A stretch of 64,000 nucleotides of DNA from a virus: the IMG/VR virus record IMGVR_UViG_3300013102_000002, positions 1-64,000 of that record; one strand, written 5' to 3'. Positions 2-58,358 of the stretch are shown here, piece by piece. The notes beneath the pieces are model-generated. The model did not search any database. It was not told where the DNA came from and worked only from the letters and a program-made list of their open reading frames with translations. The position numbers and the translations under genes were made by a program. Positions within the stretch are counted from its first letter, which is position 1; the number at the start of each line of letters is the position of its first letter.

Positions 2-358
2 AAATTAGATCCATCGCAATTTGATTTGGGAGAAATTAATTACACTCACAGATGCCATCTTAATGCAGTTCAAAAGGTTCGTGAGGGGAAGGCCGAGAAA
101 GTTTACTCTTGTGTTGCTGTAGACAAAGACAATAAAGATGTGATCATTGTCCATTTTATTAATCAAACTAAAGATGGTAAATTCATTGACCATACATGGG
201 GATGGATGAAGGAACATTATGATTATTATTTAATCAAGGAAATCAAAGAGAACGAGCAGAATAATATTTGGAGAATTTTGAGTAGCACAAAGGAGTTTTT
301 ATTTGAACTGAATTCTACTTGGTTTGAAAGTTTGTTTTGTAATAAAGAGATAATCTAA
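2..358 (+). CDS. Hypothetical phage protein, 5'-truncated; possible Cys-His-Asp (transglutaminase/papain-like) fold
   Basis: Frame is open from position 2; motifs RCHLNA...VHF...IDHTW. Confidence 0.6.
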   Translation, partial: KLDPSQFDLGEINYTHRCHLNAVQKVREGKAEKVYSCVAVDKDNKDVIIVHFINQTKDGKFIDHTWGWMKEHYDYYLIKEIKENEQNNIWRILSSTKEFLFELNSTWFESLFCNKEII

Positions 359-393
359 TCAAACATAAATTTTATTAAGAAAATGGTGACTAT

Positions 394-600
394 ATGAAAG
401 TATTTTATTCTGACGACCATGATGGACATTATCCTGTGGGTGTGTGCTCAATCATTATTGCAGAGAACGAAGTAGTTGCAAGAAATAAACTTAAGAATAA
501 ACTTATTGAACACGGTTTAAGTGCAGAAATAAGCTTTAATTTACATGAAATAAACACGGAAAAATCAGAAGCATACATAATTTTAGATGGTGATTATTAA
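394..600 (+). CDS. Hypothetical phage protein (68 aa)
   Basis: ORF with GGTGA RBS, in gene run. Confidence 0.75.
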   Translation: MKVFYSDDHDGHYPVGVCSIIIAENEVVARNKLKNKLIEHGLSAEISFNLHEINTEKSEAYIILDGDY

Positions 601-634
601 GTAAATTACAATCAATCGAGATCCAGATTTCATT

Positions 635-657
635 AAAAAAGCCTCCCATGAGGAGGC
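635..657 (-). terminator. Intrinsic terminator between convergent genes
   Basis: GCCTCC-TCATG-GGAGGC hairpin followed by T-run on minus strand. Confidence 0.7.
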
Positions 658-666
658 AACAAATGA

Positions 667-864
667 CTATTTTACTCTCTTCAAAGCTGGCTTCATGAAC
701 TCTTCGTCAAGTTCTTTAAGTACTTCTTTAACAGCTTTGCTGGCCGCTCGCGTTGCAATCTTCTCTTTGAACATATCCCAACCGCCATTTTTCTTAATAA
801 TATGCTGTTGAGCAGCTGCTCCAAAAATTCGTTTACCGTTAACAAACTGGCTTGGTGCTGGCAT
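667..864 (-). CDS. Small basic hypothetical protein (moron-like, own sigmaA-type promoter)
   Basis: GGCGGTGA RBS; TG-a-TATACT -10 upstream; terminator downstream. Confidence 0.75.
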   Translation of the reverse strand: MPAPSQFVNGKRIFGAAAQQHIIKKNGGWDMFKEKIATRAASKAVKEVLKELDEEFMKPALKRVK

Positions 865-976
865 CTACATCACCGCCTTAATGGATTTAACAATAGTATA
901 TCATGGTAATTTGCATGTTGTATATTGGAAGAAAGTTAGTAATTATACAACAGATAAATCGTTAGTTTTTTCACAA

Positions 977-1237
977 TCACTTCAATTTGATTCTCATGTT
1001 CATGGGCCAAAACAAGACATTGACCAAAGTACTTACAACTTTATTTTTGTGAATGAACCTTGCAAAGCCACTCTTAGCCTTAACCACTTGAAGATGCTGT
1101 TCGATCAACTCAGAAGGGTTGCTTTCCTTATGTTTTAGATTTAGTTTTTCCATTTTTCTAAATGCTATAGCTAAGTTAATACCGATAAATAAGTAAAGTG
1201 CTAAAACAGCAGATACAAAAATAATCATTAGTTTCAT
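977..1237 (-). CDS. Small membrane protein
   Basis: AAGGAG RBS; N-terminal hydrophobic helix. Confidence 0.7.
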   Translation of the reverse strand: MKLMIIFVSAVLALYLFIGINLAIAFRKMEKLNLKHKESNPSELIEQHLQVVKAKSGFARFIHKNKVVSTLVNVLFWPMNMRIKLK

Positions 1238-1313: not shown

Positions 1314-1469
1314 TGTGTCACTGTAAATATTGTGATGAATCAGAAGAAGAAAACGGCTTCTGGGGAGATGTTTACTTTTATATGGAAGAGAACAAATGCG
1401 ACAAGGAAACAGCGATGAAAGCCATAGAAACGATATACGAGGAATTTTGTAAAAGAACCATTTCATGAG
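1314..1469 (+). CDS. Small acidic CxCxxC protein (about 51 aa; not in ORF track)
   Basis: GGAGTGG RBS; MCHCKYCDESEEENGFWGDVYFY...CKRTIS*; start coordinate +/-1. Confidence 0.6.
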
Positions 1470-1478
1470 GAATAATAT

Positions 1479-1523
1479 TTAATGAATAAATATATGTACA
1501 AAAAATAGATAGTGTGATATAAT
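1479..1523 (+). promoter_or_regulatory. sigmaA-type promoter of parM with upstream 16-bp box
   Basis: TTAATGAATAAATATA then TGTACA-17-TATAAT with TG extension. Confidence 0.7.
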
Positions 1524-1544
1524 TCTCTTATGGGGTTAGAGGCT

Positions 1545-1584
1545 ACAAATGTCCACAACTGTACTCGCTGTGGCAAACCTGTAC
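1545..1584 (+). repeat. Candidate parC-like 10-bp iterons in the parM leader
   Basis: ACAAATGTCC ACAACTGTAC (TCGCTGTGGC) AAACCTGTAC in 10-bp phase. Confidence 0.35.
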
Positions 1585-1602
1585 ACATGGGAGGATTATA
1601 TC

Positions 1603-2547
1603 ATGATCGAAAACTGTGAATTGGATCTTGGATTTAGTTGGACAAAAGGTAAGAATAACAAAAGATCATATCTTCAACCATCAATAATAGGTGAATCCAA
1701 GCCGATGTTTGAAATGAATATCAAACCAGATGATTACGTATTTAACGATGAACTGTTTGTCGGTAATTTGGCTTTAAGACATAGCGACATCAAGTATTTC
1801 TCAATGAACAATAATAAATCTGAAGCTAGAACGAGCGATGTAATATTAAAGACTGCAATAGGCTCGCTTGCTAGATCGAATCCTATCAACTTGCTTACTG
1901 GGCTTCCATTGAATTTTTATTTTAAACAAAAAGATGAATTCGAACAGAAAATAATGAAGCTCAATGATACTTCTTCATTCACTGTTCGCAAGGGTAAGAA
2001 TAAAGATATGAATATAAAAATATCTATAAATGAATGTAAGGTTGTTCCACAAGGCTATGGAATTGCCATGGACTACATATTAAAGGCAGATGGAAATATT
2101 GACAAACACAAAATTGCTAAATCGAAAATTCTAGTAATTGACTTAGGATTCTATACATTAGGATTACTTGGACTTGATAAGATGGAAATCATGAAAGAAT
2201 CTACAGCACTGTTACTTGGTGTTGAAAATGCCTATAAACTTTTGCAAAGTTATCTTCAGGCGAAAATAGGACGTTCTCCAGCTAAGTATGAACTTGATCC
2301 CTATGTTATCTCAGGTGTTTATGAAGGCAAAAATATTAGTGATTTAATAAATAAATCTTTTAGGGCATTAGCACAGCAGATACAGAATGAGATTGAAAGC
2401 TTGAATATCACATTTAATTATTACTTAGTAGGTGGAGGCGCAGCACATCTAATCTACGAATATTTAGATTTACCGAACAAGATACTATTTGACCAACTCT
2501 CTCAATTAAGAGGGTATGGAAAGATAGGTGTTCGTTTATGGAAATAG
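1603..2547 (+). CDS. ParM/StbA-family actin-like ATPase
   Basis: DLGFSWTK phosphate-1, TGLP, VPQGYG, VIDLGFYT, VGGGA motifs; GGGAGG RBS before ATG 1603. Confidence 0.88.
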   Translation: MIENCELDLGFSWTKGKNNKRSYLQPSIIGESKPMFEMNIKPDDYVFNDELFVGNLALRHSDIKYFSMNNNKSEARTSDVILKTAIGSLARSNPINLLTGLPLNFYFKQKDEFEQKIMKLNDTSSFTVRKGKNKDMNIKISINECKVVPQGYGIAMDYILKADGNIDKHKIAKSKILVIDLGFYTLGLLGLDKMEIMKESTALLLGVENAYKLLQSYLQAKIGRSPAKYELDPYVISGVYEGKNISDLINKSFRALAQQIQNEIESLNITFNYYLVGGGAAHLIYEYLDLPNKILFDQLSQLRGYGKIGVRLWK

Positions 2548-3328: not shown

Positions 3329-3378
3329 GATTTGATAATATCAATATTTCATGCAGAAATGAGAGAGGAGTGAAAATA

Positions 3379-3774
3379 TTGCTACGCATAGGTAACCCCA
3401 TTCCACCAGAAGAGATTCCATTTGAAGCTTTAGATAAAGAAATGGTAAATATAATTAAACTACTGAATTGTAGTTATGGTTATAAAACTAAATATTGCTG
3501 TTTCGGACACGAAGAAAACGATAATTTATACATAATGTTTCATGAAGACATGAATAGTCAAATTGAAGATTTGGCTGTTAAAGTAGTAAATCACATAAAA
3601 GGTATGGACTTAAGTTTTAAGTTTTGGATAAGAAATGTTCAAGGCAAAGTTGAGAAGAACTGGCTTTGTGAAACAAACGGCGCAAAACTTGAAGCTGACA
3701 GATTTAGAATATTGAATGAGTTGACTGAGGCACTTATTGATTGCTTCAAGAAAGGAGATGTTATTCATCTGTAA
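3379..3774 (+). CDS. Hypothetical protein with TYW3-like N-terminal motif
   Basis: GAGGAG RBS before TTG 3379; LDKEM..IIKLLN...YKTKYCCFGH. Confidence 0.6.
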   Translation: MLRIGNPIPPEEIPFEALDKEMVNIIKLLNCSYGYKTKYCCFGHEENDNLYIMFHEDMNSQIEDLAVKVVNHIKGMDLSFKFWIRNVQGKVEKNWLCETNGAKLEADRFRILNELTEALIDCFKKGDVIHL

Positions 3775-6700
3775 TCAATGTAATTCAATACTACTACATA
3801 ATCACACTGATAGAGGATCTAATCTTAAGCTTAGAGATACCACAAACACCATAGAGGGATTGATTCAAACAGCACATGATATGGGGCATAAGGGATTAGC
3901 CATAACTGACCACGAGTCTGTAAGTTCACATGTAAAAGCAATACAAATCACCGAACAACTAAAAAGGGATGGAAAAATAGCTCAAGACTTTAAACTAATC
4001 TTGGGCAATGAAATTTATCTAGTGGAGAACACAGAAGAGATTCGTACCAACTATAAATCTGGTGTAACGAAGTTTCCACATTTCCTGTTACTTGCCAAGG
4101 ATACAGTCGGTCATGAGCAAATTCGCTATATGAGTTCTAAAGCTTGGGCAGATTCTTTTTACACTGGACCCATGCTAAGAACTCCAACTGAGAGAGGTTT
4201 GCTTGAATCAATTATCAAAAGAGATCCTGGACATTTGATTGCTTCAAGTGCATGTCTGGGGTCTCCACATTGTATCTATTTACTTGAAATGAAAGTACAC
4301 CACGAAAACAATGACTTAGAGAAAGCAAAACAAAGCTATAAAAAGGTTTGTGATTTCACTGAATGGTGCATTGAAGTATTTGGGGAAGATGATTTCTATC
4401 TCGAACTTCAGCCAGCATATAGTGAGGAACAAATATATTGCAATAAACAATTACTTAAACTCTCTAATAAATATGGTCTTAAATACATAATCACTACCGA
4501 TAGTCACTTTCTACGTCCAGAAGATCGAATTGTACATAAGGCATTCTTGAATGCCAAAGAAGGAGAACGTGAAGTAGATGCATTTTATGAAGCTACTTTT
4601 GTTCAAACGATTGATGAGATGTCAGAACGACTAAATTATCTGGAACATGAAGTAATCAAAACAGCCTTAGACAATACAATGGAAATTGGGAATAAAATTC
4701 AAGACTACACAATTCTTAAACCGACTGTTATTCCCAAGATTGACTTACCTGACTTCAATCTTCGTGGAACTTTCAGATCTGTATATGGAAAATATGAATT
4801 TATTAATAAAATGGCACACTCAGAAAACCCACAGGACAGATATATAGTTAAATTGATCGAAGATGGTTTTTATGAATACTTGCCCTACAATACATATTCA
4901 ACTGAGAAATTGCATTCTGTGGCTGGACGGATCAATGTTGAACTAGGTGAACTCTGGAAGATATCAGAAACTCTTAATCAGTCAATGGCGAGTTATTATA
5001 TTACTGTCAGAGAAATTGTAAACGTAATTTGGGATGATGATTGCGGAAATAGTCTTGTGGGTGTTTCTCGTGGGTCTGCTGCTGGATATCTAATTTGCTT
5101 TCTTTTGGGTATCACACAAGTTAATCCACTTGAGTATGGAATTGAAATGCCACATTGGAGACATCTTACAGCCGAGCGCCCCGAATACCCGGATGTGGAT
5201 ATAGATACTGAAGCCGCAAAAAGAGATCAGATATTTAGACAATTAAAACAATACTTTGGCGAAGAACGAGTATTGCAAGTATGTACTTTTGGAACCGAAG
5301 CATCCAAATCTGCTGTTCAAAGTGCTGCCCGTGGTCTTGGAATTGACAATGATGTAGCAATGTATGTTTCAGGACTAGTGCCATTTGAACGAGGGAGTAA
5401 CTGGACACTTTCAGATTGTGTAAATGGCAACGAAGAAAAAGAAAGAAAGCCCGTACAGGAATTTATCACTGAAATCAACAAACACGAACATTGGCTAAAT
5501 GTTGCAATGAAAATCGAAGGACTTGTAAACAAACGCAGTATCCATGCCAGTGGGGTTATTGTCTTCAATGAAGAATTTTATAAAACCAATGCAATGATGA
5601 CTGCACCTAATGGAACACATGTAACGCAATTTAGTCTTGAGGATTGTGAAGCTGTTTCAAATATGAAATTTGACCTTTTGACGATTGAAGGACTTGATAA
5701 AATTCGAGTCACATTAGACTCATTACTTGCAGAAAACCTCATGGAGTGGCAAGGTACGATACGCAAAACCTACAATAAGTATTTGCATCCTAACAAAATT
5801 GATATGATCAGCCCCAAAGTATATGACTTAATTGGATCGGATAGTATTACTGATTTGTTTCAATTCTCTACTGAAATTGGGATTCAAACAGTAAAAAGAA
5901 CTAAGCCAGCAAACTTGATTGAGCTTGCTTCTGCCAATTCACTAATGAGACTAATGGGAAGTGGACATGGAACTGAAACACCTATTGATAGTTTTATTCG
6001 TTTCAAAAACAATATTGGGGAATGGTACGAAGAACTTCACAAACATCAACTTAATGAAGATGAAATTAAGATACTTGAAAAACATCTTTTAACATTAAAC
6101 GGTGTTGCCGATACACAAGAATCTATCATGTTGTTGTCGATGGATGAAAAAGTTGCTGGATTTTCAATACAAGATGCCAATAAACTTAGAAAAATTATTG
6201 CCAAGAAAAAAGCAACTGAGATTGAGAAAATCAAGAAGAAATTTTATGAAGAAGGCTTAATGCTAGGTAATCGGACAGAGATGCTTGATTATGTATGGAA
6301 CGTACAGATTGTGAGACAGTTGGGTTATTCATTTTCAATCCTTCATACACTTGCATATTCAATCATTGCTCTACAAGAAGCAAGCCTAAACATCAACTAT
6401 AATCCTATTTACTGGAGAACAGCATGTCTAACGGTCAATTCAGCATCCATAGACAATGAATCAGACGATGATGAAGAAGACACTAAATCTAAATCTCAGT
6501 CCACTAACTATGGTAAGATTGCTTCTGCAATTGGGAACATGCAGAGTCGTGGAGTAAAAGTTGGTTTGCCAAATATCAATAAAGCTTACTTTGGATTCAA
6601 ACCTGATATTATCGAAGATCAAATCATATTTGGATTGAAAGGTATTAATGGTATTGGTGATGATGTTGTACAAAGTGTTATTCAAAATCGTCCATACGCT

Positions 6701-7720
6701 TCATTTGATGATTTCCTGATACGAATGTATGACACCTCAACTATCAAAAAAGCCCAGTTGATTCAATTAATCAAAGCTGGATGCTTCGAGACATTTGGTG
6801 ATCGTATCTCTATAATGAAGACGTTTGTGAATAAACTCTTTACGCCAAAAGAAAAACTCAATCTCCAGAATCTAAATGCTGTAATTGAATGTGGTCTTAT
6901 CCCTCAAGAGATGCAACAGTATTCTAAACTCTTTAATTTCAGAAAGTATGTAATGAAGAAAATACATAGAAAAGTTGATAAAGACAAGTATTATATACTA
7001 GATAAGATTTCTACTCCATTTTATTATGAGAATTTCTCTGATCAAGGCATAAAAGAATATAGTGGTAACTTTCCTGTAATCAGTGAGAATGTATTTAAGA
7101 AAGAATACGATAAGAAGATGGATGGTATTAGAGAATGGTTGTCACTTCCTGAAACCCTAGAATTGTTTAACACAAAACAATATGAAATGGAATGGGAATC
7201 GGTTGCCGAAGGAACGATTAGCAAATGGGAAATGGATTCACTATCTTTCTATTATACTGAGCATGAACTTGAACACATCGATTATGCACGTTATGGGATA
7301 AGTAAATTCGAGGATCTACCCGAAGAACCAATAGTTGTTTCAACGATGACCTTTAGAAATGGTAACAGCAGACCCAAGTTTAAACTTGATTTTATCACAG
7401 GAACCGTATTAGACAAGGACAAGAACAAACATACTGTGGCCCTTCTAACAACTGATGGAGTAGTGACACTTAAATTTTCTGATGGAGAATTTGCACACTA
7501 CAACAAACAAGTGTCTAAACCTAAGCCCGATGGAGGGAAACAGATTGTAGAAAAGACTTGGTTTGCCAGAGGAAATAAACTGGTGCTATGTGGATATCGT
7601 AGAGGAGCACAATTCAAACCACATCGATATAAAGACACAAATGTTAAACACACAACGATGCTGATTACTGCAATTGGTAAGGATGGGTCAGTAAAAGTTG
7701 AAACCGAAAGAAAGAAATAA
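3737..7720 (+). CDS. dnaE: DNA polymerase III alpha subunit (family C, YorL-like)
   Basis: PHP domain HNHTD, AITDH, TTDSH; SRGSAAG; YPDVDID; SIHASG; YSFSILH; start uncertain (3737/3758/3767). Confidence 0.96.
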   Translation: MIASRKEMLFICNQCNSILLHNHTDRGSNLKLRDTTNTIEGLIQTAHDMGHKGLAITDHESVSSHVKAIQITEQLKRDGKIAQDFKLILGNEIYLVENTEEIRTNYKSGVTKFPHFLLLAKDTVGHEQIRYMSSKAWADSFYTGPMLRTPTERGLLESIIKRDPGHLIASSACLGSPHCIYLLEMKVHHENNDLEKAKQSYKKVCDFTEWCIEVFGEDDFYLELQPAYSEEQIYCNKQLLKLSNKYGLKYIITTDSHFLRPEDRIVHKAFLNAKEGEREVDAFYEATFVQTIDEMSERLNYLEHEVIKTALDNTMEIGNKIQDYTILKPTVIPKIDLPDFNLRGTFRSVYGKYEFINKMAHSENPQDRYIVKLIEDGFYEYLPYNTYSTEKLHSVAGRINVELGELWKISETLNQSMASYYITVREIVNVIWDDDCGNSLVGVSRGSAAGYLICFLLGITQVNPLEYGIEMPHWRHLTAERPEYPDVDIDTEAAKRDQIFRQLKQYFGEERVLQVCTFGTEASKSAVQSAARGLGIDNDVAMYVSGLVPFERGSNWTLSDCVNGNEEKERKPVQEFITEINKHEHWLNVAMKIEGLVNKRSIHASGVIVFNEEFYKTNAMMTAPNGTHVTQFSLEDCEAVSNMKFDLLTIEGLDKIRVTLDSLLAENLMEWQGTIRKTYNKYLHPNKIDMISPKVYDLIGSDSITDLFQFSTEIGIQTVKRTKPANLIELASANSLMRLMGSGHGTETPIDSFIRFKNNIGEWYEELHKHQLNEDEIKILEKHLLTLNGVADTQESIMLLSMDEKVAGFSIQDANKLRKIIAKKKATEIEKIKKKFYEEGLMLGNRTEMLDYVWNVQIVRQLGYSFSILHTLAYSIIALQEASLNINYNPIYWRTACLTVNSASIDNESDDDEEDTKSKSQSTNYGKIASAIGNMQSRGVKVGLPNINKAYFGFKPDIIEDQIIFGLKGINGIGDDVVQSVIQNRPYASFDDFLIRMYDTSTIKKAQLIQLIKAGCFETFGDRISIMKTFVNKLFTPKEKLNLQNLNAVIECGLIPQEMQQYSKLFNFRKYVMKKIHRKVDKDKYYILDKISTPFYYENFSDQGIKEYSGNFPVISENVFKKEYDKKMDGIREWLSLPETLELFNTKQYEMEWESVAEGTISKWEMDSLSFYYTEHELEHIDYARYGISKFEDLPEEPIVVSTMTFRNGNSRPKFKLDFITGTVLDKDKNKHTVALLTTDGVVTLKFSDGEFAHYNKQVSKPKPDGGKQIVEKTWFARGNKLVLCGYRRGAQFKPHRYKDTNVKHTTMLITAIGKDGSVKVETERKK

Positions 7721-16878: not shown

Positions 16879-17000
16879 AAATACGTCCTCCAGCCTTATA
16901 TATTGCATATAAGTGATATTTTTCCAAACAAAAAAGAGACACATTGCTGTGTCCCTCACTTTTTACTCAAATATTCGATTTTTCTGATTTTGCCTCTCAA

Positions 17001-17059
17001 AAAACCCAGTGTTTATGCGGACTTTTTTGACGTATTTCCTCATGAAATTCCTATTTTAT
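17001..17059. repeat. Composite repeat, copy 1 (partner at 39543-39602)
   Basis: AAAC[CCAGTGTTTATGCGG]ACTTTTTT.ACGT.ATTTCCTCATGAAAT-N4-ATTTTAT. Confidence 0.8.
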
Positions 17060-17365
17060 ATAATCTTCAATATTTATATTGTGATTCTTACGCAAATCTT
17101 CCAAGGTAATAAATTCATACTTTCTGAGAAATGGGATATTTTGATCATCTCTTATTTTAATTATTCTTCCATTTCTCATAGTTATGGAAATAGAATATGA
17201 TAAATATTCCATTCCATCCCATTCTTCTTTTAGGGATTGACGGAATGACTTTACAGTGCCGACCATATTGCAGTCAATTTTTTTTAAACTGCGCCAACCA
17301 TTATAAACATAAACTTTATCATTTATTTCGCATTCTATCAAATCGGAGTACATTGTATAAGCCAT
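17051..17365 (-). CDS. Hypothetical moron gene with own sigmaA-type promoter
   Basis: TATAAT -10 near 17411-17416; flanked by 18-bp palindromes. Confidence 0.7.
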   Translation of the reverse strand: MAYTMYSDLIECEINDKVYVYNGWRSLKKIDCNMVGTVKSFRQSLKEEWDGMEYLSYSISITMRNGRIIKIRDDQNIPFLRKYEFITLEDLRKNHNINIEDYIK

Positions 17366-17477
17366 TTCAAGTCATCACCCTTTTATTGAAATCGTAAATG
17401 TTTAATAATAATTATACACCATTTACTAATTTGTTCCAATAATAGTTTTGCGTAATTTGAAAAAAATCTCCCATAAA

Positions 17478-19490: not shown

Positions 19491-19598
19491 TGCAAATTAA
19501 ACACCTTTCTAATCATAATTTGCGACTTGTTAGATATCTATACAAAATATAAATATCTAATAAAAAACCAACAAAAAGTAGATTTTATATTTTTATCA

Positions 19599-34100: not shown

Positions 34101-35637
34101 GTTCAATTGTTTGACTTTCATCAAATCCCATCCGGGCAAAACCAATGGCGTTCTCATTTACTTCTTTAATACTTCGACCCAATTCATTCGCTAATTCAAT
34201 GCTTTTCTCTAACATGCTATCAAAATCTGTATCGTTATCCATTACGCGCTTTAATTGCGTAATTTGGCTATCCACATCGATGATTGTTCTTGTCATTTCT
34301 TTTAGTGCGCTAGTTATCCCAAAGAATACACTTCCTACTCCAGAATAGAGTAAGATATTTGACATTGCAGATTTTAAACTATCTCCAAACGTACGAGTGT
34401 GACCAGAAGTTGCTCTTGCTTCGTCTCCAATCTGTCTAATTTCGGCAACGAGTTGAGCGGCTTTAGCCTTATAATTATCAGTCGAAGTAGTTAGATTTTT
34501 TAATTGCGTCAATAGCAAATTTAGCTTTGTGGTGTCAATTTTAGAATAAGCACTGCTTAAACTTGCCACTTTCTGCTCGGCCTTGGTTTGAATCGATATT
34601 AATTCTTGTTCTGCTTTCATTTGTCTAGAGGCAAGGTCGTTTAGGGCTTTAATTCTGCGGTTAATACCATTCAGTTCACTATCTGTAAGTTGCCGACCAG
34701 ATGCTTGAATCATTGCAATTCTTTGTGCAACTTCATCATATTTACGATTAAGCAAATCTAATGCTTTTGTATTTTCAACACCAGTAACAGCAGTCGTTTT
34801 ACTCGTTGCTAATTTACTGTTTAAGTTGGTATATGTTTTAGCATCCTGAATTTCACGTTCGCGAATAGCTTTTAAATACCAATCCTCATATGCCTTTCTT
34901 GTTTGTTGGGTGCGAGAAATCTCAGCCCGTTCTAAGTCAGCATTATTCTGAATCGCTCTCTGTTGGCTCTCATTCCATTGACGCTCAAAATCCCTAGTCT
35001 TAGATTCGGCGGTAATTCTTCCTTGAGCCATTTGTTCAGCCAATGCCAATTCTGTTTTAGAATTTTTTGTAATTTCATTTAATTGATTTTGATTCCAGTG
35101 TCGCTGGAAGTCACGAACTCTTGATTCAGAAGCAATTCTACCTTCAGCCATTTTATTGATTAAAGACTGAAGTTCTTTTGCGTCTTTTATTTGATTCTGT
35201 ATATTGTCTATATTCTTAATGGAGCCATCGGGAAGAGTGGTTACTACCTGTTTTGCGTTTGTTTCTGTGCTTCCATATGTAGTTGTTTTAATTCCTTTAC
35301 TATTTGTTTTCTCGCGTTCAATCTGCCACTTTTTTTCAGCAGCAATAGCTTCGTTTGTTACCTTAATTTGTTCGTTAATACTTTTTGTAGTAGTATTTAA
35401 CCCATTATTAAGAGTATTGTTGGCTGAACTCTGCTGATTAATTTGTGACGTAATTAAATTAAGATTCTTAGAGAACGAGGAGAGGTTCTTAATAAAATCA
35501 TCGTTAATAGTTATATTTAACTTTAGCTTTTGAAGAGACGGATGCTTGCTCAGTTGTTCAATCGACTTATTGATATCTTTTTCTGCGCGGCTTAAATCGA
35601 GTGCAGCACTTATCAAAATCTTCATGTTATCAGCCAT
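28179..35637 (-). CDS. Tail tape measure protein, 2185 aa, spliced: join(33962..35637, 33532..33685, 33078..33272, 28179..32711)
   Basis: Removing three introns fuses four exons in frame and rebuilds INEV|DNNFAIS, RESGSVVG|NSLKTIYSR, SLAG|RFQLSRFLALM; C-terminal YHTGG..EVPAILEDGE. Confidence 0.92.
32712..33077 (-). ncRNA. Group I intron 3 of TMP gene (366 nt, no ORF)
   Basis: Exon ends in U, intron ends in G; P1 GCCC/GGGU; P10 AAAUCU/AGAUUU; P3 GCCAAC/GUUGGC; P7 GACUG/CAGUC. Confidence 0.9.
33273..33531 (-). ncRNA. Group I intron 2 of TMP gene (259 nt, no ORF)
   Basis: P1 GCCG/CGGU; P10 AGUU/AACU; P3 UCUCUAC/GUAGAGA; R CGUGAACGACUAAGUG; S GCGAUAGUCUG; terminal G. Confidence 0.92.
33686..33961 (-). 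ncRNA. Group I intron 1 of TMP gene (276 nt, no ORF)
   Basis: P1 GCCUC/GAGGU; P3 CCUUUUC/GAAAAGG; R CGUGAACGACUAAGUG; S GCGAUAGUCUG; terminal G. Confidence 0.92.
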
Positions 35638-35677
35638 TATATTCAAATCACTTCCTTTTACTTACTTTTGGGCAAAC

Positions 35678-35718: not shown

Positions 35719-36960
35719 TTATATAATTTGCTTGAAAATTTCATCTAATGTTTTATTTTCTAAATCTCCAGGAAAGATAAAAATGCAATTGTCAATGTAT
35801 CCCCATGAACTAAGATTTGATATTTTTTTCTTTGCTTTTTTTATATATTTATAAATGAATGGATTATTCAATTGTTGAGAACTCCAAAGACCAAAATACT
35901 CAATATAATATTCTCTGCCGTTATAACTAACTACCCAATCAAGTCTTCTTCTGGTTTGATCTTTATCGAAATAGTCACGGTAGAGAGGATGACTGATATA
36001 TTGTATGCCTTTTGAAATAAACCAGTTCGAGATAATCATTTCAGGTATAGAATCACATCTATTTCCTTCAGAATCGACGATCAGATTATCATAGTAGTCA
36101 TCTTCTGAATAATTTGGTCCAAGTCTCTTTTTGAGGTGATATTCTCTTAAATATTTTCTTTCACATTCCTCACAATAACGATGAATATTTTCAACATCGT
36201 TAAAATTTGTACGAAACTTGGATGTCTCAAGCCAATCTTTACAGGATGAACAATATGCGGCTCCCTGGATAAGTAACTCATTTTTCAATCTTATTGTAAC
36301 TTTCCCGTTTTTTCTACTTTTCATTTCTACATTAAGATCCCAACATTCTTTGCATCTTGTTCTAAACCCATTCCTATCTCTATAGAAGAATTGATCGTTC
36401 TCTGGTAATATTTTATTGCAATCTTTACAAATTCTCTTTTCTCCTTCTAATTTAAACTTATGAAGATGATTATATCTTTTGATTTTAAGTGTTTTTGTGG
36501 CGTATGCTCTAATGGTTGAATATTTTCTATGACTTAGTTTCTCAGCAATTTCATCTTCTGGAGTGAATGCGAAATTTTCTTTTAAATAATCAATTTCCCA
36601 CCGTTCCCATTTTTGTTTCTTTGATGCTCTGTGTAATCCAAGTTCATTTCTTTTATATCTAATCGAGTCAATTGTTTTATTTAATTCTTTTGATAGTTGT
36701 TCATCGTCATATTTTTCCCAGTTGACTTGCAGACAAATCAACTCTTCTTCTGCCCACATGGTATTGTTTGGTGTTGCGCCCATAAGAATGACGATTTCAT
36801 TCCATTTTTTGTTGTTATAGAATTTAGTATATTGATATGAAGATATAAAACCATCGGTTGCTTTTAGAGAGTTTTTACCTGGAACCCTACCATATTCGCT
36901 ATAATATCTCCAAAAATTATCATATAAAGTTTTGTAGTCCAATTTAATTACACCTCGCAA
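35719..36960 (-). CDS. Free-standing homing-endonuclease-like protein (W..EE helical repeats, CxxC fingers, C-terminal PD-(D/E)xK-like nuclease)
   Basis: WAEEE/WERWE repeats; CKDC..CKEC, CSSC..CEEC; CDSIPEMIISNWF...RLDW...IEYFG. Confidence 0.65.
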   Translation of the reverse strand: MRGVIKLDYKTLYDNFWRYYSEYGRVPGKNSLKATDGFISSYQYTKFYNNKKWNEIVILMGATPNNTMWAEEELICLQVNWEKYDDEQLSKELNKTIDSIRYKRNELGLHRASKKQKWERWEIDYLKENFAFTPEDEIAEKLSHRKYSTIRAYATKTLKIKRYNHLHKFKLEGEKRICKDCNKILPENDQFFYRDRNGFRTRCKECWDLNVEMKSRKNGKVTIRLKNELLIQGAAYCSSCKDWLETSKFRTNFNDVENIHRYCEECERKYLREYHLKKRLGPNYSEDDYYDNLIVDSEGNRCDSIPEMIISNWFISKGIQYISHPLYRDYFDKDQTRRRLDWVVSYNGREYYIEYFGLWSSQQLNNPFIYKYIKKAKKKISNLSSWGYIDNCIFIFPGDLENKTLDEIFKQII

Positions 36961-37363: not shown

Positions 37364-37465
37364 TTATATTACGCTAGGAGTAATTTGTAAAGTGTTTATT
37401 TAGAATTTTGTTTGCAATAGATTTGGTTTGAGTATATAATAGATTTACATATATTTATTAATTAA
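37364..37465. promoter_or_regulatory. Divergent sigmaA promoters with a 16-bp box in the HTH gene leader
   Basis: Minus: TTTACA-17-TATAAT; plus: TTGCAA-17-TATAAT; box TATATTTATTAATTAA at 37450-37465. Confidence 0.7.
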
Positions 37466-38315: not shown

Positions 38316-38612
38316 TTTCAATCTCATTCCCAACATACAAAAACACCCCCAAATTTATCCACTCATACTTAAAAGTATAAGCGATATGTATCGGAGATGC
38401 CATAATTTTCAATCATGTATGAAACAATATGTTGGAGATATTATTTGGTTTAATTCTACCTTAATTATATTATAACCTAAATAATTAATTTGTAAACATA
38501 TATTTATTAATTAAACTCCAATTACACGATTAATTATTTAAGTCACAACACAATTATCCCAAGAGAGTAGAGGACCATAATAAAAAGCCACTCATTCGAG
38601 TGACTTAAATGC

Positions 38613-39119
38613 TCATGCGTCCAATTCATTTTCAACATTGTATCCGAGTTCAACCAGTCTCTTTTCAACCTGCTCTTCTACAAGGTTCTGAATAGTCTCT
38701 TTCAAACTTAATGTTTCAATCAGTTGCAAATCAACCTTGAACATATCTATGGGAGTAAGTTCACCCTTTTTATCTTCGAGTCGATTGCGCGTAACAGACT
38801 GAACCTGATTTGTCATGACAAACGAATCTTTGCTGAGTTGACCAATGTATTCTTTCTTTTTTAAGATCACATCAGTCATAATTGTCTTTTTTCTTATCCC
38901 TTTTTTATTAAACAATGATGTAATAGGAAGTACGACTACGGTATTCCGTGGAAATTCGCTGTCAAATAGAACGATAGCTCTATGTGTCCCACTGATAACG
39001 CATGAATCGCGTTTTATCTTTTTCTTTTCTCCACCAAAATCAACATTAAAAATCTCGCCTCTTTTGAATGACCGTTGATTACTGAATACGGTTTCTGATG
39101 CTACAATTTTATTAACCAA
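38613..39119 (-). CDS. PemK/MazF-family endoribonuclease toxin
   Basis: KRGEIFNVDF, G.HRAIVL, TVVVLPITS, SFVMTNQVQSV...RL. Confidence 0.8.
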   Translation of the reverse strand: MVNKIVASETVFSNQRSFKRGEIFNVDFGGEKKKIKRDSCVISGTHRAIVLFDSEFPRNTVVVLPITSLFNKKGIRKKTIMTDVILKKKEYIGQLSKDSFVMTNQVQSVTRNRLEDKKGELTPIDMFKVDLQLIETLSLKETIQNLVEEQVEKRLVELGYNVENELDA

Positions 39120-39344: not shown

Positions 39345-39542
39345 CAAACATCACATCTCCTAAGTTATTTGGCTAATTTTATTATAACACAAATCAAGAG
39401 AGAATTAACATATAGTATTCCCGATATGACCAAATAATTACATAATGAATTTTTTTCTAAATAATTTGCAAAACTGCCAACACCTATAAGCAGATGTTGA
39501 CTATTTCGAGAATTATTCAATTTTTATAAATTTAATGATTCA

Positions 39543-39602
39543 GAAACCCGCATAAACATTGGACTTTTTTAACGTGATTTCCTCATGAAATGATAGTTTT
39601 AT
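39543..39602. repeat. Composite repeat, copy 2 (15-bp core inverted relative to copy 1)
   Basis: AAAC[CCGCATAAACATTGG]ACTTTTTT.ACGTGATTTCCTCATGAAAT-N4-GTTTTAT. Confidence 0.8.
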
Positions 39603-39943
39603 CTAGTGTTATTTTTTAAAACTAATTTTTCTAGTCCATCAAAAAAACCTTGTACAGTATCCACAGATGAAGAATTATACATTTGAATTTTATCGTCTTG
39701 TTTACACGTAACACTTCCACTATCTGAAAACCCATCACACCATACCTGCGGATACATAATTGGGTTAGGATTAACTACAGAAGGCAGAGGGGTGACATAG
39801 GTTGGTGGATAATGCACATAAGTAGGATAAGTTGGAAAAGTGGAGGCAGGTGGTGATTTTTTATTAGAATCAATTTCAAAAATTAGCTTTGCAATTTCTT
39901 CGACAGTTCCTTCGATTTCAATACCGTGAATGGTTGCTTTCAT
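39599..39943 (-). CDS. Hypothetical Pro-rich protein
   Basis: AGGAG RBS; IEIEGTVEEI N-terminus. Confidence 0.75.
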   Translation of the reverse strand: MKATIHGIEIEGTVEEIAKLIFEIDSNKKSPPASTFPTYPTYVHYPPTYVTPLPSVVNPNPIMYPQVWCDGFSDSGSVTCKQDDKIQMYNSSSVDTVQGFFDGLEKLVLKNNTR

Positions 39944-39972: not shown

Positions 39973-40977
39973 TTAGCCAAAAATCTTATTTCTTTCTTCG
40001 GCAAAATCTCTAAGATCATAATGGGCTATAGTTGTAGCGATATTCTCGTGATGAGCTATATATTTTGAGACTATTTCTATAGGAACCTTTTTAACTTCCA
40101 ATAGATATGTAACACAAGACGCTTTAAAAAGATGAGGGTTTATCCGTCTTCCTAGAATATTCGAAAGAGTTTCTTTACAAAACTCATTAGCCCAAGCTTC
40201 CGACATGGAACCAACTTCTCCACCATATTTAGTAGTAAAAATATATTCTGATTCATAATCCCGTTTTTCAATCCAAAGTTTCACATACTGCAATGCTTCT
40301 TCATTCACCATATACGGCTCTTGCTTCCCATCTTCGCCCCGACCCTTCAGACGAATTATATGAGACATTGTGTAGCCGCCACCTTCAACAATAGGATAGT
40401 TAAGAATCTCAGTTTTAAACTGTGGGATCTCTGCACGTCTTGCACCTACATTAAAAGCAAATGCTACCCATGCAGCACCCAGATAGTTTTTATCATTCAA
40501 TAATGTTTCCATCAATAGATCATAATCGTCTTTTGATATTTTTACTTTTGTGTATACATGATTTTTCGATATAGCTGGTAATCCACGAGTGAAGTTTCTA
40601 AATGTTTTATAATTCTTGTCATCATCCGCAACAACATTCTCTATATAGTTAGAAAGACTTGAGACACATGCCTTGCGTAAACCGATGGCACTAGAGGACA
40701 TTTTTCTTGTGTCTCTTAAAAAACTGATATATCTTAAAAAATCTCGTTTGCTGATCTCGTGTAATGGCTTATTATTCATGCTCTTATAAACGTAATAACC
40801 GAACTGTCTTAAACATGATTTATATTGAATTTTAGTTTTCTGACTATGTGCCTGAACCGAGATGTACTCCTCGACCAAGTTACGGTAATCTTCATTGACC
40901 AGTTGCCATTTCTCTTCGTCAACAGGAGGGAGCTTGTCGGCTGTTTCTCTGAGCATATTTTTATTTATACTTACCAT
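39973..40977 (-). CDS. Tyrosine recombinase (YomM-like) within tail operon
   Basis: GARRAE, KGRG, NPHLFK, HHE...HYD catalytic pattern. Confidence 0.9.
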   Translation of the reverse strand: MVSINKNMLRETADKLPPVDEEKWQLVNEDYRNLVEEYISVQAHSQKTKIQYKSCLRQFGYYVYKSMNNKPLHEISKRDFLRYISFLRDTRKMSSSAIGLRKACVSSLSNYIENVVADDDKNYKTFRNFTRGLPAISKNHVYTKVKISKDDYDLLMETLLNDKNYLGAAWVAFAFNVGARRAEIPQFKTEILNYPIVEGGGYTMSHIIRLKGRGEDGKQEPYMVNEEALQYVKLWIEKRDYESEYIFTTKYGGEVGSMSEAWANEFCKETLSNILGRRINPHLFKASCVTYLLEVKKVPIEIVSKYIAHHENIATTIAHYDLRDFAEERNKIFG

Positions 40978-41044
40978 GTATTCACCTTCTCATTTTACTT
41001 GCCAAATATTTTCACAAAATAACCATTTCATCAAAACTCACATA

Positions 41045-54651: not shown

Positions 54652-54895
54652 ATAGTCCTCCCCTAGACGATAAAAGCATCCGTCCATAATTTAATTTGAT
54701 GAAACTCCCATTTCACAACACTTTCACTCCACTTACCGACAACAAAATAAAAAACTTAAATGAGGATAGCGGGGGAGTGTCCACTGTTTAATGCAAACCC
54801 TTGTAGCAGGGGCATCCTCATTTAAAAAAATAAAGACAACAAAAAGGGCGATTCTATATTAGCAATCGTCCAAGGAGTTCTTCTTATTTTTTACA

Positions 54896-55288: not shown

Positions 55289-55360
55289 GATGGATAATTG
55301 ACTATGTATAATTAGTGTATAGAATGTATAAAAACATAGATTATATATGTATATTTATTA

Positions 55361-56575
55361 CTATAATTTAATATTATAAGTTACAGTTCTTCCCTTGTCT
55401 TCCTCGATAATCATAATCTTTGCTCCAGCGTTGGAAGTCTTCTTTAGCTTCAGAGAGTAGTCATCGATTCCGATAATCGCATCTGTTTGAATATACTCAA
55501 CATTACGTCCGCCATTCATTGCAATTGTTTTTTCGTGAGAATGATGCAAATGTCCACTCAGAAGGATGTGAACGGGCTTGTTGTAGGTAAGCATATAATC
55601 CTTAATACTGTTCTCAAGATTACGTTCATTCTCTCCATGAACACAAAGGGTTTTAGTTCCTAAAATATCCAGATACGCAAATTCACTGCAATTCGTCACA
55701 GTAATATTTTTATTGTTTCTTAAGTTGGCCTCAATCAGTTTAGTGATCCATTTCTGAGCATTCTCATGTGGGAATTCATCGCGTTTACCCGACAACATTC
55801 TCATTTGATCATGATTTCCGAAGATAGAGTAGTAGTCTACCAAACAATATTTGCTTAACTCATTCAACCAGTGGCTCATAAATTCAGCAAAATGAATAGC
55901 AGAATCCGTAACTCCCAACTTCAAACTCATTAACTGACTCATACGAAGAATACCATCTACACTGTCGCCAAGATTAGGGAGAACAACATGATTAATCTTC
56001 TGATCATCATTAATAACAATGAATTCTTCAAGCAATTTCCACATACGCTTCTCAAGAATCTCAGGGCTATACTCATTAAGAATCTCATTTTCCCATCCAC
56101 GTAACTGGAATTCAACACCATCATGCATGTCTGCAATAGGGAAGAGGAAGTCACGCTTGGTATTATTATTCTTAATATAGATATCTGGAACAATAATTGT
56201 TGGTCTATTATTCACAGACTCAATAATCTTTTCCTCAAGCAACTCAGCTCTGGACTGTTCACGAATCATTTTATTGTATTCAATCTTTTCAGACTGAAGC
56301 TTAATACGCTCTTTTTGCTGCTCAATTGTTGCATCACGTACTTCTTGAACAACTTCATTGTTTGCATACTTAGAAAGAATAATTGGTTTCCATTCGAGAT
56401 AACTATTATAACGTTTACGCCATCTAGATTCAGAGTATTCTTCTTCGCATTCTTCATTTAGGAGTTTTGCTGCTTGAGTCCAGGTTATATCGTAGGTAAT
56501 TAGATTCTCGCCTAAGCGCAACAAAAAATCGTCAATACTTTCTGACGATTCTCGTTTAATATTTAAAGGAGTCAT
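55361..56575 (-). CDS. Calcineurin-like metallophosphoesterase (YonJ-like)
   Basis: DMH, LGDSVDG, GNHD, HG, GHLHH. Confidence 0.85.
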   Translation of the reverse strand: MTPLNIKRESSESIDDFLLRLGENLITYDITWTQAAKLLNEECEEEYSESRWRKRYNSYLEWKPIILSKYANNEVVQEVRDATIEQQKERIKLQSEKIEYNKMIREQSRAELLEEKIIESVNNRPTIIVPDIYIKNNNTKRDFLFPIADMHDGVEFQLRGWENEILNEYSPEILEKRMWKLLEEFIVINDDQKINHVVLPNLGDSVDGILRMSQLMSLKLGVTDSAIHFAEFMSHWLNELSKYCLVDYYSIFGNHDQMRMLSGKRDEFPHENAQKWITKLIEANLRNNKNITVTNCSEFAYLDILGTKTLCVHGENERNLENSIKDYMLTYNKPVHILLSGHLHHSHEKTIAMNGGRNVEYIQTDAIIGIDDYSLKLKKTSNAGAKIMIIEEDKGRTVTYNIKL

Positions 56576-56586
56576 TCAATCACTCC

Positions 56587-56781
56587 TTATTCTTCTACTT
56601 GATGACTAGGCTCGAAATCTGAAGCTACAGTAATAGAAATGTTGCTACCATCAAAATCTTGAAGGAGAGACTTAAGATCAAAAATGTAAATCCCGTTTTT
56701 ATCTTCAGCAGTTACTGTCATTTTGTCCATTTCAAATAGACCAGTACGATTAACTGTTTTACTGTCCTTATTTTTAGCCAT
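56587..56781 (-). CDS. YonK-like small protein
   Basis: MAK....V...G....TVT.EDK...FDL..LL.DFDG..ISIT. Confidence 0.75.
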   Translation of the reverse strand: MAKNKDSKTVNRTGLFEMDKMTVTAEDKNGIYIFDLKSLLQDFDGSNISITVASDFEPSHQVEE

Positions 56782-56813
56782 ATTTTTTACTCCCCAATAT
56801 GTATTTTTATTGA

Positions 56814-58127
56814 TTACAGCAAATCTGCACAAATCTGAGCAATATCAGAACGTTCGCCTCTTGAAAGAGTGATGTGTCCAACCAATTTCTGATTCTTCAT
56901 GGTTTCAATAAAATGAGTTAGTCCATTTGAGTACATATCGAGATATGTATTATCGATTTGCTCTGGATCACCAACCATGACCAATTTTGCTCCAGATGCA
57001 AGTCGAGTGGCGATAGTTTTTACCTCTAGCTTAGAAAGATTCTGTGCTTCATCCATGATCATAAACTGCATAGGAATGCTTCTTCCACGAATGTAGGTCA
57101 ATGGTTCAACCTTGATAATATCTTCATACCCTTCAAGGGTTTTATTTAATTCGGTATCACTTTTACAATCAAACAAAAATTCAAGATTATCGTAGATTGG
57201 TTGCATCCATGGTCTCATTTTTTGTTCGATTTCTCCTGGTAAATAACCAAGATCTTTACCCATGGGTACGATAGGACGGCCTACCAATACCTTACGATAT
57301 TTTTGTTCGTCCATTGTTTTTTGTAGTCCAGCAGCCAATGCTAAGAGGGTTTTACCTGTTCCTGCTTTACCTGATAGTGTAACAATTTTAACATCGTCAT
57401 CAAGTAATAATTCCAGAGCCATCATTTGTTGTACATTACGATGGGTAGTGGTTCCGAATACAGGGTCTCCGGTATAATGGTAGAATGGAACAATATCACC
57501 GTTTTTCTTTCGGCAAACTGCACTCTTACTAACATTTATATTTGACTTCAAAATAAACATATGATTTTCGGGATAACTATCGAACATTTCCATGTTCAAG
57601 TATTTGTTCTTATAGAAGAAGTCGATAATATCATCATCAACGCTTAATTCATCGTATCCCTTGTATAGTTCACTTTCATTAGTAGCAACTTTGTCATTTT
57701 GGTAGTCCTCAGAGTTAACAGAAACAGTATCCGCTTTGATACGAACCAATACATCTTTTGATAGTAAGATTACTTCAGTATCTGGACTTGCAATTGTTAA
57801 GTCATAAGCAACCGATATAATAGCATCGTCATTATTACATTCAATGAATTTATTAAAAACAGGAGACTCTGGATTATGAGTTATAATCTTGATTGTGCCG
57901 CCATTGTTTAACTTTACTCCAAGGTGCAACTTTCCATCTTCTCGAATACGATCCAATTCTCTCGCTACATTTCTAGCGTTGTATCCAACCTCGTCCATTT
58001 GTTTCTTCTTTGAGTCCAATTCACTTAAACAAACAGCAGGAATAACTACCTCGTTATCTCCAAAGGAATAGATAGCGTGTGGATCGCTTAATAGGATATT
58101 TGTATCGAGAACATAAGTCTTTTTCAT
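56814..58127 (-). CDS. phoH: PIN-PhoH (PhoH2/YlaK-like) ATPase/ribonuclease
   Basis: YVLDTN PIN domain; GKAGTGKT; LGYLPG; RGRS; DEAQN; GDPEQID. Confidence 0.92.
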   Translation of the reverse strand: MKKTYVLDTNILLSDPHAIYSFGDNEVVIPAVCLSELDSKKKQMDEVGYNARNVARELDRIREDGKLHLGVKLNNGGTIKIITHNPESPVFNKFIECNNDDAIISVAYDLTIASPDTEVILLSKDVLVRIKADTVSVNSEDYQNDKVATNESELYKGYDELSVDDDIIDFFYKNKYLNMEMFDSYPENHMFILKSNINVSKSAVCRKKNGDIVPFYHYTGDPVFGTTTHRNVQQMMALELLLDDDVKIVTLSGKAGTGKTLLALAAGLQKTMDEQKYRKVLVGRPIVPMGKDLGYLPGEIEQKMRPWMQPIYDNLEFLFDCKSDTELNKTLEGYEDIIKVEPLTYIRGRSIPMQFMIMDEAQNLSKLEVKTIATRLASGAKLVMVGDPEQIDNTYLDMYSNGLTHFIETMKNQKLVGHITLSRGERSDIAQICADLL

Positions 58128-58358
58128 AGGCGTTACCTCGTTGGGTAGGATGGAGGGGAGGTTAATCCCCTCATGTTTGTTGCGGGTTTTCTCCTATATG
58201 GAGGATGATATATGATTCTTGCGCCCCTTACCGGGGATATTGTTGCACTTCATCCAGATAAAAACTCATTTCCGTGTCTTATTTAACTCCCCACGGCGTG
58301 GAATCGAACTCTGGTATCCGATATGTATAATAAAACTATTGTTTTATATGAATATTTA

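What the first reader, a model, noticed from the sequence alone, without database searches (positions are those of the whole stretch)
358..58347. Dispersed 18-bp palindrome ATRAAAT-N4-ATTTYAT at accessory-gene boundaries: possible phage gene-cassette system
Seen: 7-bp arms around a variable 4-bp spacer at 358-375 (ATCAAAC ATAA ATTTTAT), 616-633, 1449-1466 (GTAAAAG AACC ATTTCAT), 3335-3352, 17042-17059 (ATGAAAT TCCT ATTTTAT), 17386-17403, 19571-19588, 39585-39602, 41014-41031, 54699-54716 and 58330-58347 (ATAAAAC TATT GTTTTAT). Several touch or overlap the stop codon of a small gene (about 358, 1469, 17051, 39599). Pairs bracket single genes (394-600; 17051-17365) and the tyrosine recombinase block (39585/41031). 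Three copies continue with the same GAGGAA. Inference: conserved arms, a variable spacer and gene-boundary placement fit tyrosine recombinase core sites used to shuffle single-gene cassettes, integron-like, with the 39973-40977 enzyme as candidate. A repressor operator is the alternative. Copies at 616 and 17386 are degenerate.
Basis: partly seen in the sequence, partly recalled or inferred. Interest (0 to 1): 0.7.

Follow-up and report, generated by a model that had tools for sequence, protein, structure and literature searches.

The report
Gene-boundary palindromes of an SPbeta-like phage
A short DNA palindrome that marks gene boundaries in this large soil-bacterium phage and its relatives is real, though only about eight of the eleven listed copies are genuine. 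Related phages tend to have swapped genes exactly at these marks, so they look like crossover or docking points, but nobody has shown which protein uses them.

Summary
The motif is real but was drawn slightly wrong, and only part of the window list holds. The true form is two 6-bp arms (ATRAAA / TTTYAT) around a 6-bp centre, with weak extension to about 10-bp arms.

I scored the window with a matrix trained only outside it:
- Strong: 358, 1449, 17042, 39585, 41014.
- Moderate, each with an orthologous copy in a related phage: 3335, 54699, 58330.
- Noise level: 616.
- Not copies: 17386, 19571.

Genome-wide there are 30 exact copies at spacing 6 and 0-2 at any other spacing. SPbeta, phi3Ts, Geobacillus E3 and a staphylococcal SPbeta-like phage show the same enrichment.

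The window belongs to a 174.5-kb SPbeta-like phage. Gene 39973-40977 is the YomM orthologue, not the master repressor MrpR.

The arms vary independently, so no hairpin is selected. Copies sit after the stop codon or terminator and before the promoter box or RBS, which points to a DNA-level boundary element. Mosaic junctions between related phages fall at the core edges.

This supports module-exchange joints, not an integron. Catalysis by a recombinase is unproven. Other windows of this genome were already flagged by the scan for the same motif.

The parts
358..375 (+). palindrome copy, strong (21.4 bits); abuts the stop of ORF 26-358, 18 nt before ORF 394-600
1449..1466 (+). palindrome copy, strong (19.8 bits); left end of a homology block shared with phage G001; followed by SPBRE-like box and promoter of the ParM/Alp-like gene
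3335..3352 (+). moderate copy (13.7 bits) with an orthologue in G001 that has the identical 6-bp centre while both flanks are unrelated
17042..17059 (-). palindrome copy, strong (20.7 bits); stop of ORF 17051-17365 lies in its centre; upstream of the holin gene
16999..17041 (-). shared segment after the copy: GAGGAAAT plus a terminator-shaped stem-loop (A-run, loop with ATAAA, T-run); 31 nt are 93.5% identical to the segment after copy 39585
39585..39602 (-). palindrome copy, strongest in the window (22.0 bits); orthologue in G001 directly follows the yomM stop with 5 of 6 centre bases the same, whereas here one extra gene (39599-39943) lies between
39541..39584 (-). shared GAGGAAAT plus stem-loop segment, paralogous to 16999-17041
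41014..41031 (-). palindrome copy, strong (19.7 bits), 36 nt before the start of the YomM-like gene; orthologue in G001 47 nt before its yomM (4 of 6 centre bases the same)
54699..54716 (-). moderate copy (15.2 bits); exact-consensus orthologue in G001; preceded by a 150-nt structured non-coding block about 90% identical between the two phages
58330..58347 (-). moderate copy (14.2 bits) just after the HU-like gene; orthologue in G001 with 5 of 6 centre bases the same
39973..40977 (-). YomM orthologue: Xer/Cre-fold tyrosine-recombinase-family protein; candidate, unproven, partner of the sites
63010..64000 (+). YopP-like tyrosine recombinase (runs on to 64077 of the genome) with canonical H-x-x-R and H...Y motifs by eye; second candidate partner

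Best explanation
The genuine window copies belong to a family of about 60-70 double-stranded DNA palindromes spread over this 174.5-kb SPbeta-like phage. Each has 6-bp arms, a 6-bp free centre and weak extension to 10-bp arms. SPbeta-type phages of Bacillus, Geobacillus and Staphylococcus carry the same family.

Shown:
- The spacing is strictly fixed.
- The two arms vary independently.
- Copies sit right after a stop codon or terminator and before the promoter box or ribosome site of the next gene.
- Homology blocks between related phages begin and end at the outer edges of the 18-bp core.
- Cores, with their centres, survive as islands when both flanks have been replaced.

Inferred:
- Each copy is a docking site for a dimer of a conserved phage protein.
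- The copies act as the preferred crossover points where related co-infecting phages exchange gene modules.
- The most likely partner is a phage Xer/Cre-like protein: YomM-like 39973-40977 or YopP-like 63010-64077.
- The distinct centres would prevent rearrangement within one genome and would pair each copy only with its counterpart in another phage.

Exchange by short-homology recombination without a dedicated enzyme would leave the same traces.
For: - Fixed spacing: 30 exact copies at N6 against 0-2 at other spacings. SPbeta has 14 against 0-3.
- Matrix hits far exceed simulations.
- No pairing covariation at arm position 3/16: A-C 12, A-T 14, G-C 9, G-T 20; Fisher p = 0.28.
- Placement: the upstream stop lies within -12 to +3 in about 46 of 62 copies, and the next start is mostly 17-46 nt after the copy. 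The promoter-associated box is always downstream of the palindrome, 9 cases to 0.
- Window against G001: the homology block 1443-2842 starts at copy 1449. Copies 3335 and 39585 are conserved islands between unrelated flanks or next to an inserted gene.
- SPbeta against phi3Ts: 6 of 32 block boundaries lie within 6 bp of a copy, against 1.8% for random positions. Junctions fall at base 1 or within a few bases of the core edge. Five of 12 isolated syntenic exact islands are palindromes.
- Centres: no identical pair, none self-complementary, and a hint of fewer near-identical pairs than column shuffles give.
- The YomM-like protein is the most conserved protein against SPbeta (63%).
- It has a Xer/Cre fold and invariant R, K, H, K/R, H, Y positions.
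- The motif is enriched in every phage tested whose YomM is at least 55% identical. It is not enriched in Lactococcus P1048, whose YomM is 31% identical.
Against: - No binding or cleavage data exist for any protein.
- Only about one in five SPbeta/phi3Ts block boundaries is at a palindrome. Short intergenic regions are largely filled by the palindrome, so part of the coincidence is expected. My rough estimate, conditional on the intergenic region, is p of about 0.003.
- The one laboratory-hybrid crossover that can be resolved (Hyb3, near 54013) is not at a copy.
- Centres drift between this phage and G001 (2 to 6 of 6 bases the same, about 74% overall), so 'addresses' are not held fixed.
- YomM has Lys at the Arg-II position. 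It could instead serve one special site, for example for cyclisation or multimer resolution.
- Uniqueness of the centres is close to the chance expectation (0 identical pairs against 1.6-2.2 expected).
Confidence: 0.5

Rival explanations
1. Purely regulatory or architectural docking site. A dimeric phage protein (helix-turn-helix type, HU-like, or a catalytically idle recombinase-fold protein like MrpR) binds between genes. It would insulate, block or time early-gene expression. Junctions at the copies are then only a by-product of short shared homology and of selection to keep the sites.
For: Independent half-sites at fixed spacing. Near-universal placement between stop and ribosome site. Precedent in SPbeta of a recombinase-fold repressor bound to a multi-copy element (PMC10516654). 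Centres drift at about the average rate.
Against: Where a promoter box shares the spacer, the palindrome lies upstream of it, and often after a terminator, so outside both transcripts. MrpR ChAP-seq in SPbeta gave ten peaks at SPBRE promoters (PMC10516654), and the motif I derived from those promoters is a different sequence from the palindrome. The precision of junctions at core edges and the 18-23-bp islands are not predicted by this reading.
Confidence: 0.3
2. Compact promoter for a phage-specific RNA polymerase (YonO-type, 59589-62378) or a phage-modified host polymerase, placed before each gene.
For: Order terminator-like hairpin, then palindrome, then ribosome site in about a fifth of copies. 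Copies lie 17-46 nt before starts.
Against: The symmetric sequence gives no direction. In nine intergenic regions a separate sigma-A-type promoter with its box lies between the palindrome and the gene. Copies are rare in the late, YonO-transcribed cluster and dense among early genes (PMC8270828). There is no match to -35/-10 spacing.
Confidence: 0.07
3. RNA-level element (hairpin, processing site or translational operator) in the leader of each gene.
For: Position close to ribosome sites. Inverted repeat able to form a 6-bp stem.
Against: No covariation: A-C mismatches are as frequent as A-T pairs. The stem would be weak and all A-U. Copies lie upstream of promoters where these are present. 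No Rfam match.
Confidence: 0.04
4. Chance matches in A+T-rich DNA, built from start-codon (ATGAAA) and stop-codon (TAA/TGA) contexts.
For: Three listed copies are indeed noise.
Against: Spacing control, simulations and orthologous copies in other phages.
Confidence: 0.01

Closest known systems
pdif sites and dif modules of Acinetobacter plasmids (PMC6449649)
   Same: Many Xer-type sites (arms around a 6-bp centre) flank discrete accessory-gene modules that are found reshuffled between related replicons.
   Different: pdif arms are the asymmetric XerC and XerD halves used by host enzymes, on plasmids. Here the arms are symmetric, the element is a phage, any enzyme would be phage-encoded, and no recombination has been shown.
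PeSL promoter/stem-loop cassettes of T4-type phages (PMC2839356, PMC4122927)
   Same: A short conserved intergenic motif repeated between small variable genes. Insertion, deletion and replacement junctions between related phages fall at it. About a fifth of the copies here are also coupled to a terminator-shaped stem-loop.
   Different: PeSLs contain an early promoter and work through ordinary homologous recombination. The palindrome here is not a promoter and has a copy-specific centre.
Heterospecific lox/FRT sites used for cassette exchange (my own knowledge)
   Same: Identical arms with different centres do not recombine with each other but do recombine with a matching partner. That is the behaviour the unique centres would give.
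   Different: That is an engineered system. Dependence on centre identity is not tested here.
SPBRE, the operator of the SPbeta master repressor MrpR (PMC10516654)
   Same: A multi-copy intergenic element of the same phage group, bound by a tyrosine-recombinase-fold protein.
   Different: Different sequence (derived), about ten copies at promoters. Its counterpart in this genome is a separate box that lies downstream of the palindromes.
Integron attC/attI cassettes
   Same: Single genes bounded by recombination-type inverted repeats.
   Different: No attI, no common promoter and no long imperfect attC. Every gene keeps its own ribosome site. Neighbouring centres differ, so cassette circles are not expected.

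Membership tests
SPbeta-group intergenic palindrome (arms ATRAAA/TTTYAT, 6-bp centre; unnamed in the papers searched) | Fixed 6-bp spacing between the arms | tested here: met
   30 exact at N6 against 0-2 at other spacings; window 4 against 0-1
SPbeta-group intergenic palindrome (arms ATRAAA/TTTYAT, 6-bp centre; unnamed in the papers searched) | Score above chance with a matrix trained on other parts of the genome | tested here: met
   Met for 358, 1449, 17042, 39585, 41014 (strong) and 3335, 54699, 58330, 2839 (moderate). Not met for 616, 17386, 19571
SPbeta-group intergenic palindrome (arms ATRAAA/TTTYAT, 6-bp centre; unnamed in the papers searched) | Same motif enriched in related phages, with orthologous copies | tested here: met
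   SPbeta, phi3Ts, Geobacillus E3, Staphylococcus SPbeta-like, G001, G002. Orthologues of six window copies found in G001
Tyrosine-recombinase core site (dif/Xer, lox/Cre type) | Inverted arms of about 10-13 bp around a 6-8-bp central region | tested here: met
   6 strong plus about 4 weak arm positions on each side of a 6-bp centre
Tyrosine-recombinase core site (dif/Xer, lox/Cre type) | A cognate recombinase with the catalytic R-K-H-R-H/W-Y set | tested here: inconclusive
   YomM-like: Xer/Cre fold, invariant R, K, H, H, Y, but Lys (22 of 23) at the Arg-II position. YopP-like: canonical motifs by eye only
Tyrosine-recombinase core site (dif/Xer, lox/Cre type) | Binding, cleavage and strand exchange at the centre | not testable with these tools
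   Needs EMSA, ChIP and suicide-substrate assays
Tyrosine-recombinase core site (dif/Xer, lox/Cre type) | Natural recombinant junctions map to the site | tested here: inconclusive
   Junctions lie at core edges and cores persist as islands. Short-homology recombination would give the same pattern, and one resolvable laboratory crossover lies elsewhere
Integron (attI/attC, IntI) | attC sites (long imperfect palindromes) in an array next to attI, a common promoter and an IntI-type integrase | tested here: not met
   Uniform 18-bp cores dispersed over 174 kb, each gene with its own ribosome site. The fold is nearest XerA and Cre; IntI ranks tenth
SPBRE / MrpR operator | The 15-bp SPBRE sequence at early promoters | tested here: not met
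   The motif shared by the ten ChAP-seq promoters is a different sequence. The box of that kind in this genome is separate and lies downstream of the palindromes
RNA hairpin or intrinsic terminator | Base pairing kept by compensatory change; G+C-rich stem and T-run | tested here: not met
   No covariation, all-A/T stem. True terminator-like hairpins are separate neighbouring elements

The most novel reading that the evidence does not exclude
SPbeta-type phages carry a built-in, genome-wide module-exchange system. A phage Xer/Cre-like enzyme (YomM or YopP type) recombines address-matched palindromes between co-infecting relatives. The 6-bp centres act as addresses that forbid rearrangement within one genome but allow position-true swapping of accessory genes.
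Probability: 0.3. Interest if true: 0.9.

Novelty: new variant of a known kind. Interest (0 to 1): 0.65.

Why it matters
Mosaic phage genomes are usually explained by random illegitimate recombination followed by selection. Here a defined 18-bp element marks the joints in a well-studied model phage group (SPbeta, phi3T). In that group three recombinase-fold genes exist, and only one of them (MrpR) has a known role. If the palindromes are enzyme-used crossover points, they would be a natural counterpart of engineered cassette exchange. They would also be a direct handle on how large temperate phages trade defence and counter-defence genes. If they are only docking sites, they still define an unrecognised regulatory layer that sits before most early genes. 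Either reading is testable in Bacillus subtilis 168.

Tried and rejected
- SPBRE/MrpR operator, my first idea: rejected after deriving SPBRE from the ten published target promoters and after finding that 39973-40977 is YomM, not MrpR.
- Sigma-A promoter inside the palindrome: no -35 at the right distance.
- Hairpin: no covariation.
- 'Barcode' from uniqueness of centres alone: uniqueness is near the chance expectation. Only a weak deficit of near-identical pairs appears.
- Laboratory hybrids phi3Ts x SPbeta as a decisive test: the crossovers lie in 1.4-18-kb stretches of parental identity and cannot be placed. The one resolvable crossover is not at a copy.
- Megablast of the window against the phage collection found nothing.
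- G001 has almost no nucleotide homology in the lysis region, so copy 17042 has no orthologue to compare.
- Papers searched for YomM or for a description of this palindrome gave nothing. Lazarevic et al. 1999 was not searched for or opened.
- Rfam: only group I introns in the window.


Full report
WHAT THE WINDOW IS

The window is the first 64 kb of a single 174,510-bp contig with 34% G+C. Genes run on the + strand to about 10.6 kb and on the - strand to about 62.4 kb.

Gene 39973-40977 (-) matches the phage-integrase family and is 63% identical over its full length to YomM of Bacillus phage SPbeta. A tblastn of all called proteins against SPbeta finds 21 counterparts. They include:
- the DNA polymerase (3737-7720, 52%);
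- the HU-like YonN (58359-58679, 50%);
- the YonO RNA polymerase (59589-62378, 24%);
- a YopP-like protein (63010-64077, 30%);
- an MrpR-like protein outside the window (102473-103468, 26%).

So this is an SPbeta-like phage. The closest YomM homologues come from Paenibacillus.

Over the whole genome, however, it gives 2, 25 and 52 hits at 0, 1 and 2 mismatches, against about 0.1, 2 and 27 in Markov simulations. Most hits lie beyond the window and almost all are between genes.

Column counts show that the conserved part is six bases on each side of a free six-base centre. Weaker symmetric positions extend each arm to about ten bases.

A spacing control settles it. Exact arms occur 30 times at spacing 6 and 0-2 times at every other spacing from 0 to 13. 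SPbeta gives 14 against 0-3.

I then trained a matrix only on copies beyond base 64000 and set the threshold at about one false hit per genome. The results are:
- Strong: 358, 1449, 17042, 39585, 41014.
- Moderate: 2839, 54699, 58330, 3335.
- Noise level: 616.
- Negative scores: 17386, 19571.

Orthologous copies in the related phage G001 back 3335, 54699 and 58330.

ANATOMY

- The two arms vary independently. At the variable position pair, A-C mismatches (12) are as common as A-T pairs (14). No hairpin is therefore being kept, in RNA or in DNA.
- The upstream gene's stop lies within -12 to +3 of the left arm in about 46 of 62 copies. The next start codon is mostly 17-46 nt beyond the right arm.
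- A second repeated element is a box of the type TTTAATGAATAAATATAT sitting on sigma-A-type promoters. It resembles the SPBRE that I derived from the ten published MrpR targets of SPbeta.
- Where that box shares an intergenic region with a palindrome, the palindrome always comes first, 9 cases to 0.
- In some copies a terminator-shaped stem-loop with a conserved loop lies next to the palindrome.
- The usual order is therefore stop, terminator, palindrome, promoter, ribosome site. This puts the palindrome outside both transcripts and points to a DNA-level role.
- In the window, copies 17042 and 39585 carry such a stem-loop on their downstream side and share 31 nt at 93.5% identity from the right arm onward. 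Their centres and left sides differ.

RELATIVES

The motif at spacing 6 is enriched in:
- SPbeta and phi3Ts (14 exact each, against 1 for the reversed control in phi3Ts);
- Geobacillus virus E3 (24 of 31 variable-gap matches are N6);
- a staphylococcal SPbeta-like phage (10 of 14);
- G001 (11 of 17);
- G002, in a variant with G or C at the outermost position.

It is not enriched in Lactococcus phage P1048, whose YomM is only 31% identical.

DO GENE-CONTENT BREAKPOINTS FALL AT THE MOTIF?

Window against G001 (YomM 92% identical):
- The only long homology block in the first 12 kb is 1443-2842. It starts at copy 1449 and ends at 2839.
- Copy 3335 has a counterpart with the same centre. The window has two extra small genes before it, and the sequence after it is unrelated.
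- Copy 39585 matches a G001 copy that directly follows the yomM stop. In the window one extra gene is inserted between, and the downstream DNA is unrelated.

SPbeta against phi3Ts:
- Six of 32 block boundaries lie within 6 bp of a copy, against 1.8% for random positions.
- Identity starts or stops at the first base, or within a few bases, of the 18-bp core.
- Five of 12 truly isolated syntenic exact islands of at least 16 bp are palindromes with their centres.

Cautions:
- Palindromes fill a large share of short intergenic regions, so the excess over an intergenic-only null is smaller. My rough estimate is p of about 0.003.
- Four in five boundaries are elsewhere.
- Centres between this phage and G001 are only about 74% alike (2 to 6 of 6 bases).
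- In the laboratory hybrids of phi3Ts and SPbeta the crossovers sit in long identical stretches that happen to end at palindromes. The single resolvable crossover is not at a copy.

CANDIDATE PROTEINS

The YomM-like protein is the most conserved protein between this phage and SPbeta, and it stays at 62-70% identity across Bacillales genera.
- Its model (pLDDT 84) is closest to XerA, Cre, the Tn1549 integrase, IntI and XerH.
- In 23 family members R180/R181, K218, H282, H309/H310 and Y320 are invariant.
- The Arg-II position is Lys in 22 members and Arg in one.

This looks like a maintained active site, unlike MrpR, which has lost crucial catalytic residues (PMC10516654). The YopP-like protein shows canonical H-x-x-R and H...Y motifs by eye.

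Nothing links either protein to the palindromes except geometry and co-occurrence. YomM could equally serve a single site, for genome cyclisation or multimer resolution. This phage also has a ParM/Alp-like partition gene.

VERDICT

The family is real and the window holds about nine copies.

The best reading (0.5) is a DNA-level docking element at module boundaries that also serves as the preferred crossover point between related phages. Catalysis by a phage Xer/Cre-like enzyme with centre-matched pairing is the most novel version that the data do not exclude (about 0.3).

A purely regulatory docking site is the main rival (0.3). Promoter, RNA element and chance are unlikely.

'Integron-like' does not fit. 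The nearest known analogues are pdif/dif modules (PMC6449649) and PeSL cassettes (PMC2839356, PMC4122927).

Earlier notes of this scan on other windows of the same genome reached similar readings. I re-tested the central claims on different data: the window copies against G001, and SPbeta against phi3Ts.

Noticed in passing
window 32819-33087, 33359-33541, 33776-33971 (- strand): Three group I introns in a row (Rfam RF00028: 72.9, 35.8 and 48.9 bits), with related 53-nt segments. They appear to split the tape-measure-like gene into pieces (28179-32768, 33514-33738, 33934-35646). The middle piece matches SPbeta yomI.
   Followed up: partly
window 1479-1511 (+), 62906 (+); 35829-35859, 37433-37465, 38486-38515, 62812 (-); about 25-30 more beyond the window: A box of the type TTTAATGAATAAATATAT sits just upstream of sigma-A-type promoters with an extended -10. 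It resembles the SPBRE operator of SPbeta and is probably the operator of the MrpR-like repressor (102473-103468).
   Followed up: partly
window 54745-54895 (- strand): A 150-nt non-coding block is about 90% identical to G001, although the neighbouring genes are far more diverged. It folds well (z = -3.6) into a long hairpin that ends in a T-run. It could be a small RNA, a leader or a packaging or late-control signal next to the terminase-region genes.
   Followed up: partly
window 16999-17028 and 39541-39570 (- strand); similar copies near 131100, 142500, 149350, 152730, 173090 of the genome: A terminator-shaped stem-loop with a conserved loop (contains ATAAA) lies at a fixed distance from some palindromes, on either side. 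It forms a composite intergenic module.
   Followed up: partly
window 1549-2547 (+): An actin-like ParM/Alp partition protein gene lies behind a repressor-box promoter. This hints that the phage may be able to persist as a plasmid, although the related G001 is classed as an integrated provirus.
   Followed up: no
window 38613-39119 (-): A MazF/PemK-like toxin-domain gene lies in the variable segment (35.5-39.6 kb). In G001 about 0.6 kb takes the place of this segment.
   Followed up: no
window 39973-40977 (-): The YomM-type recombinase-fold protein is more conserved (62-70% across Bacillales genera) than any structural or replication protein of these phages. A homologue also occurs in Geobacillus virus E3 (63% identical). 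This suggests an essential, unknown role in lytic growth.
   Followed up: partly
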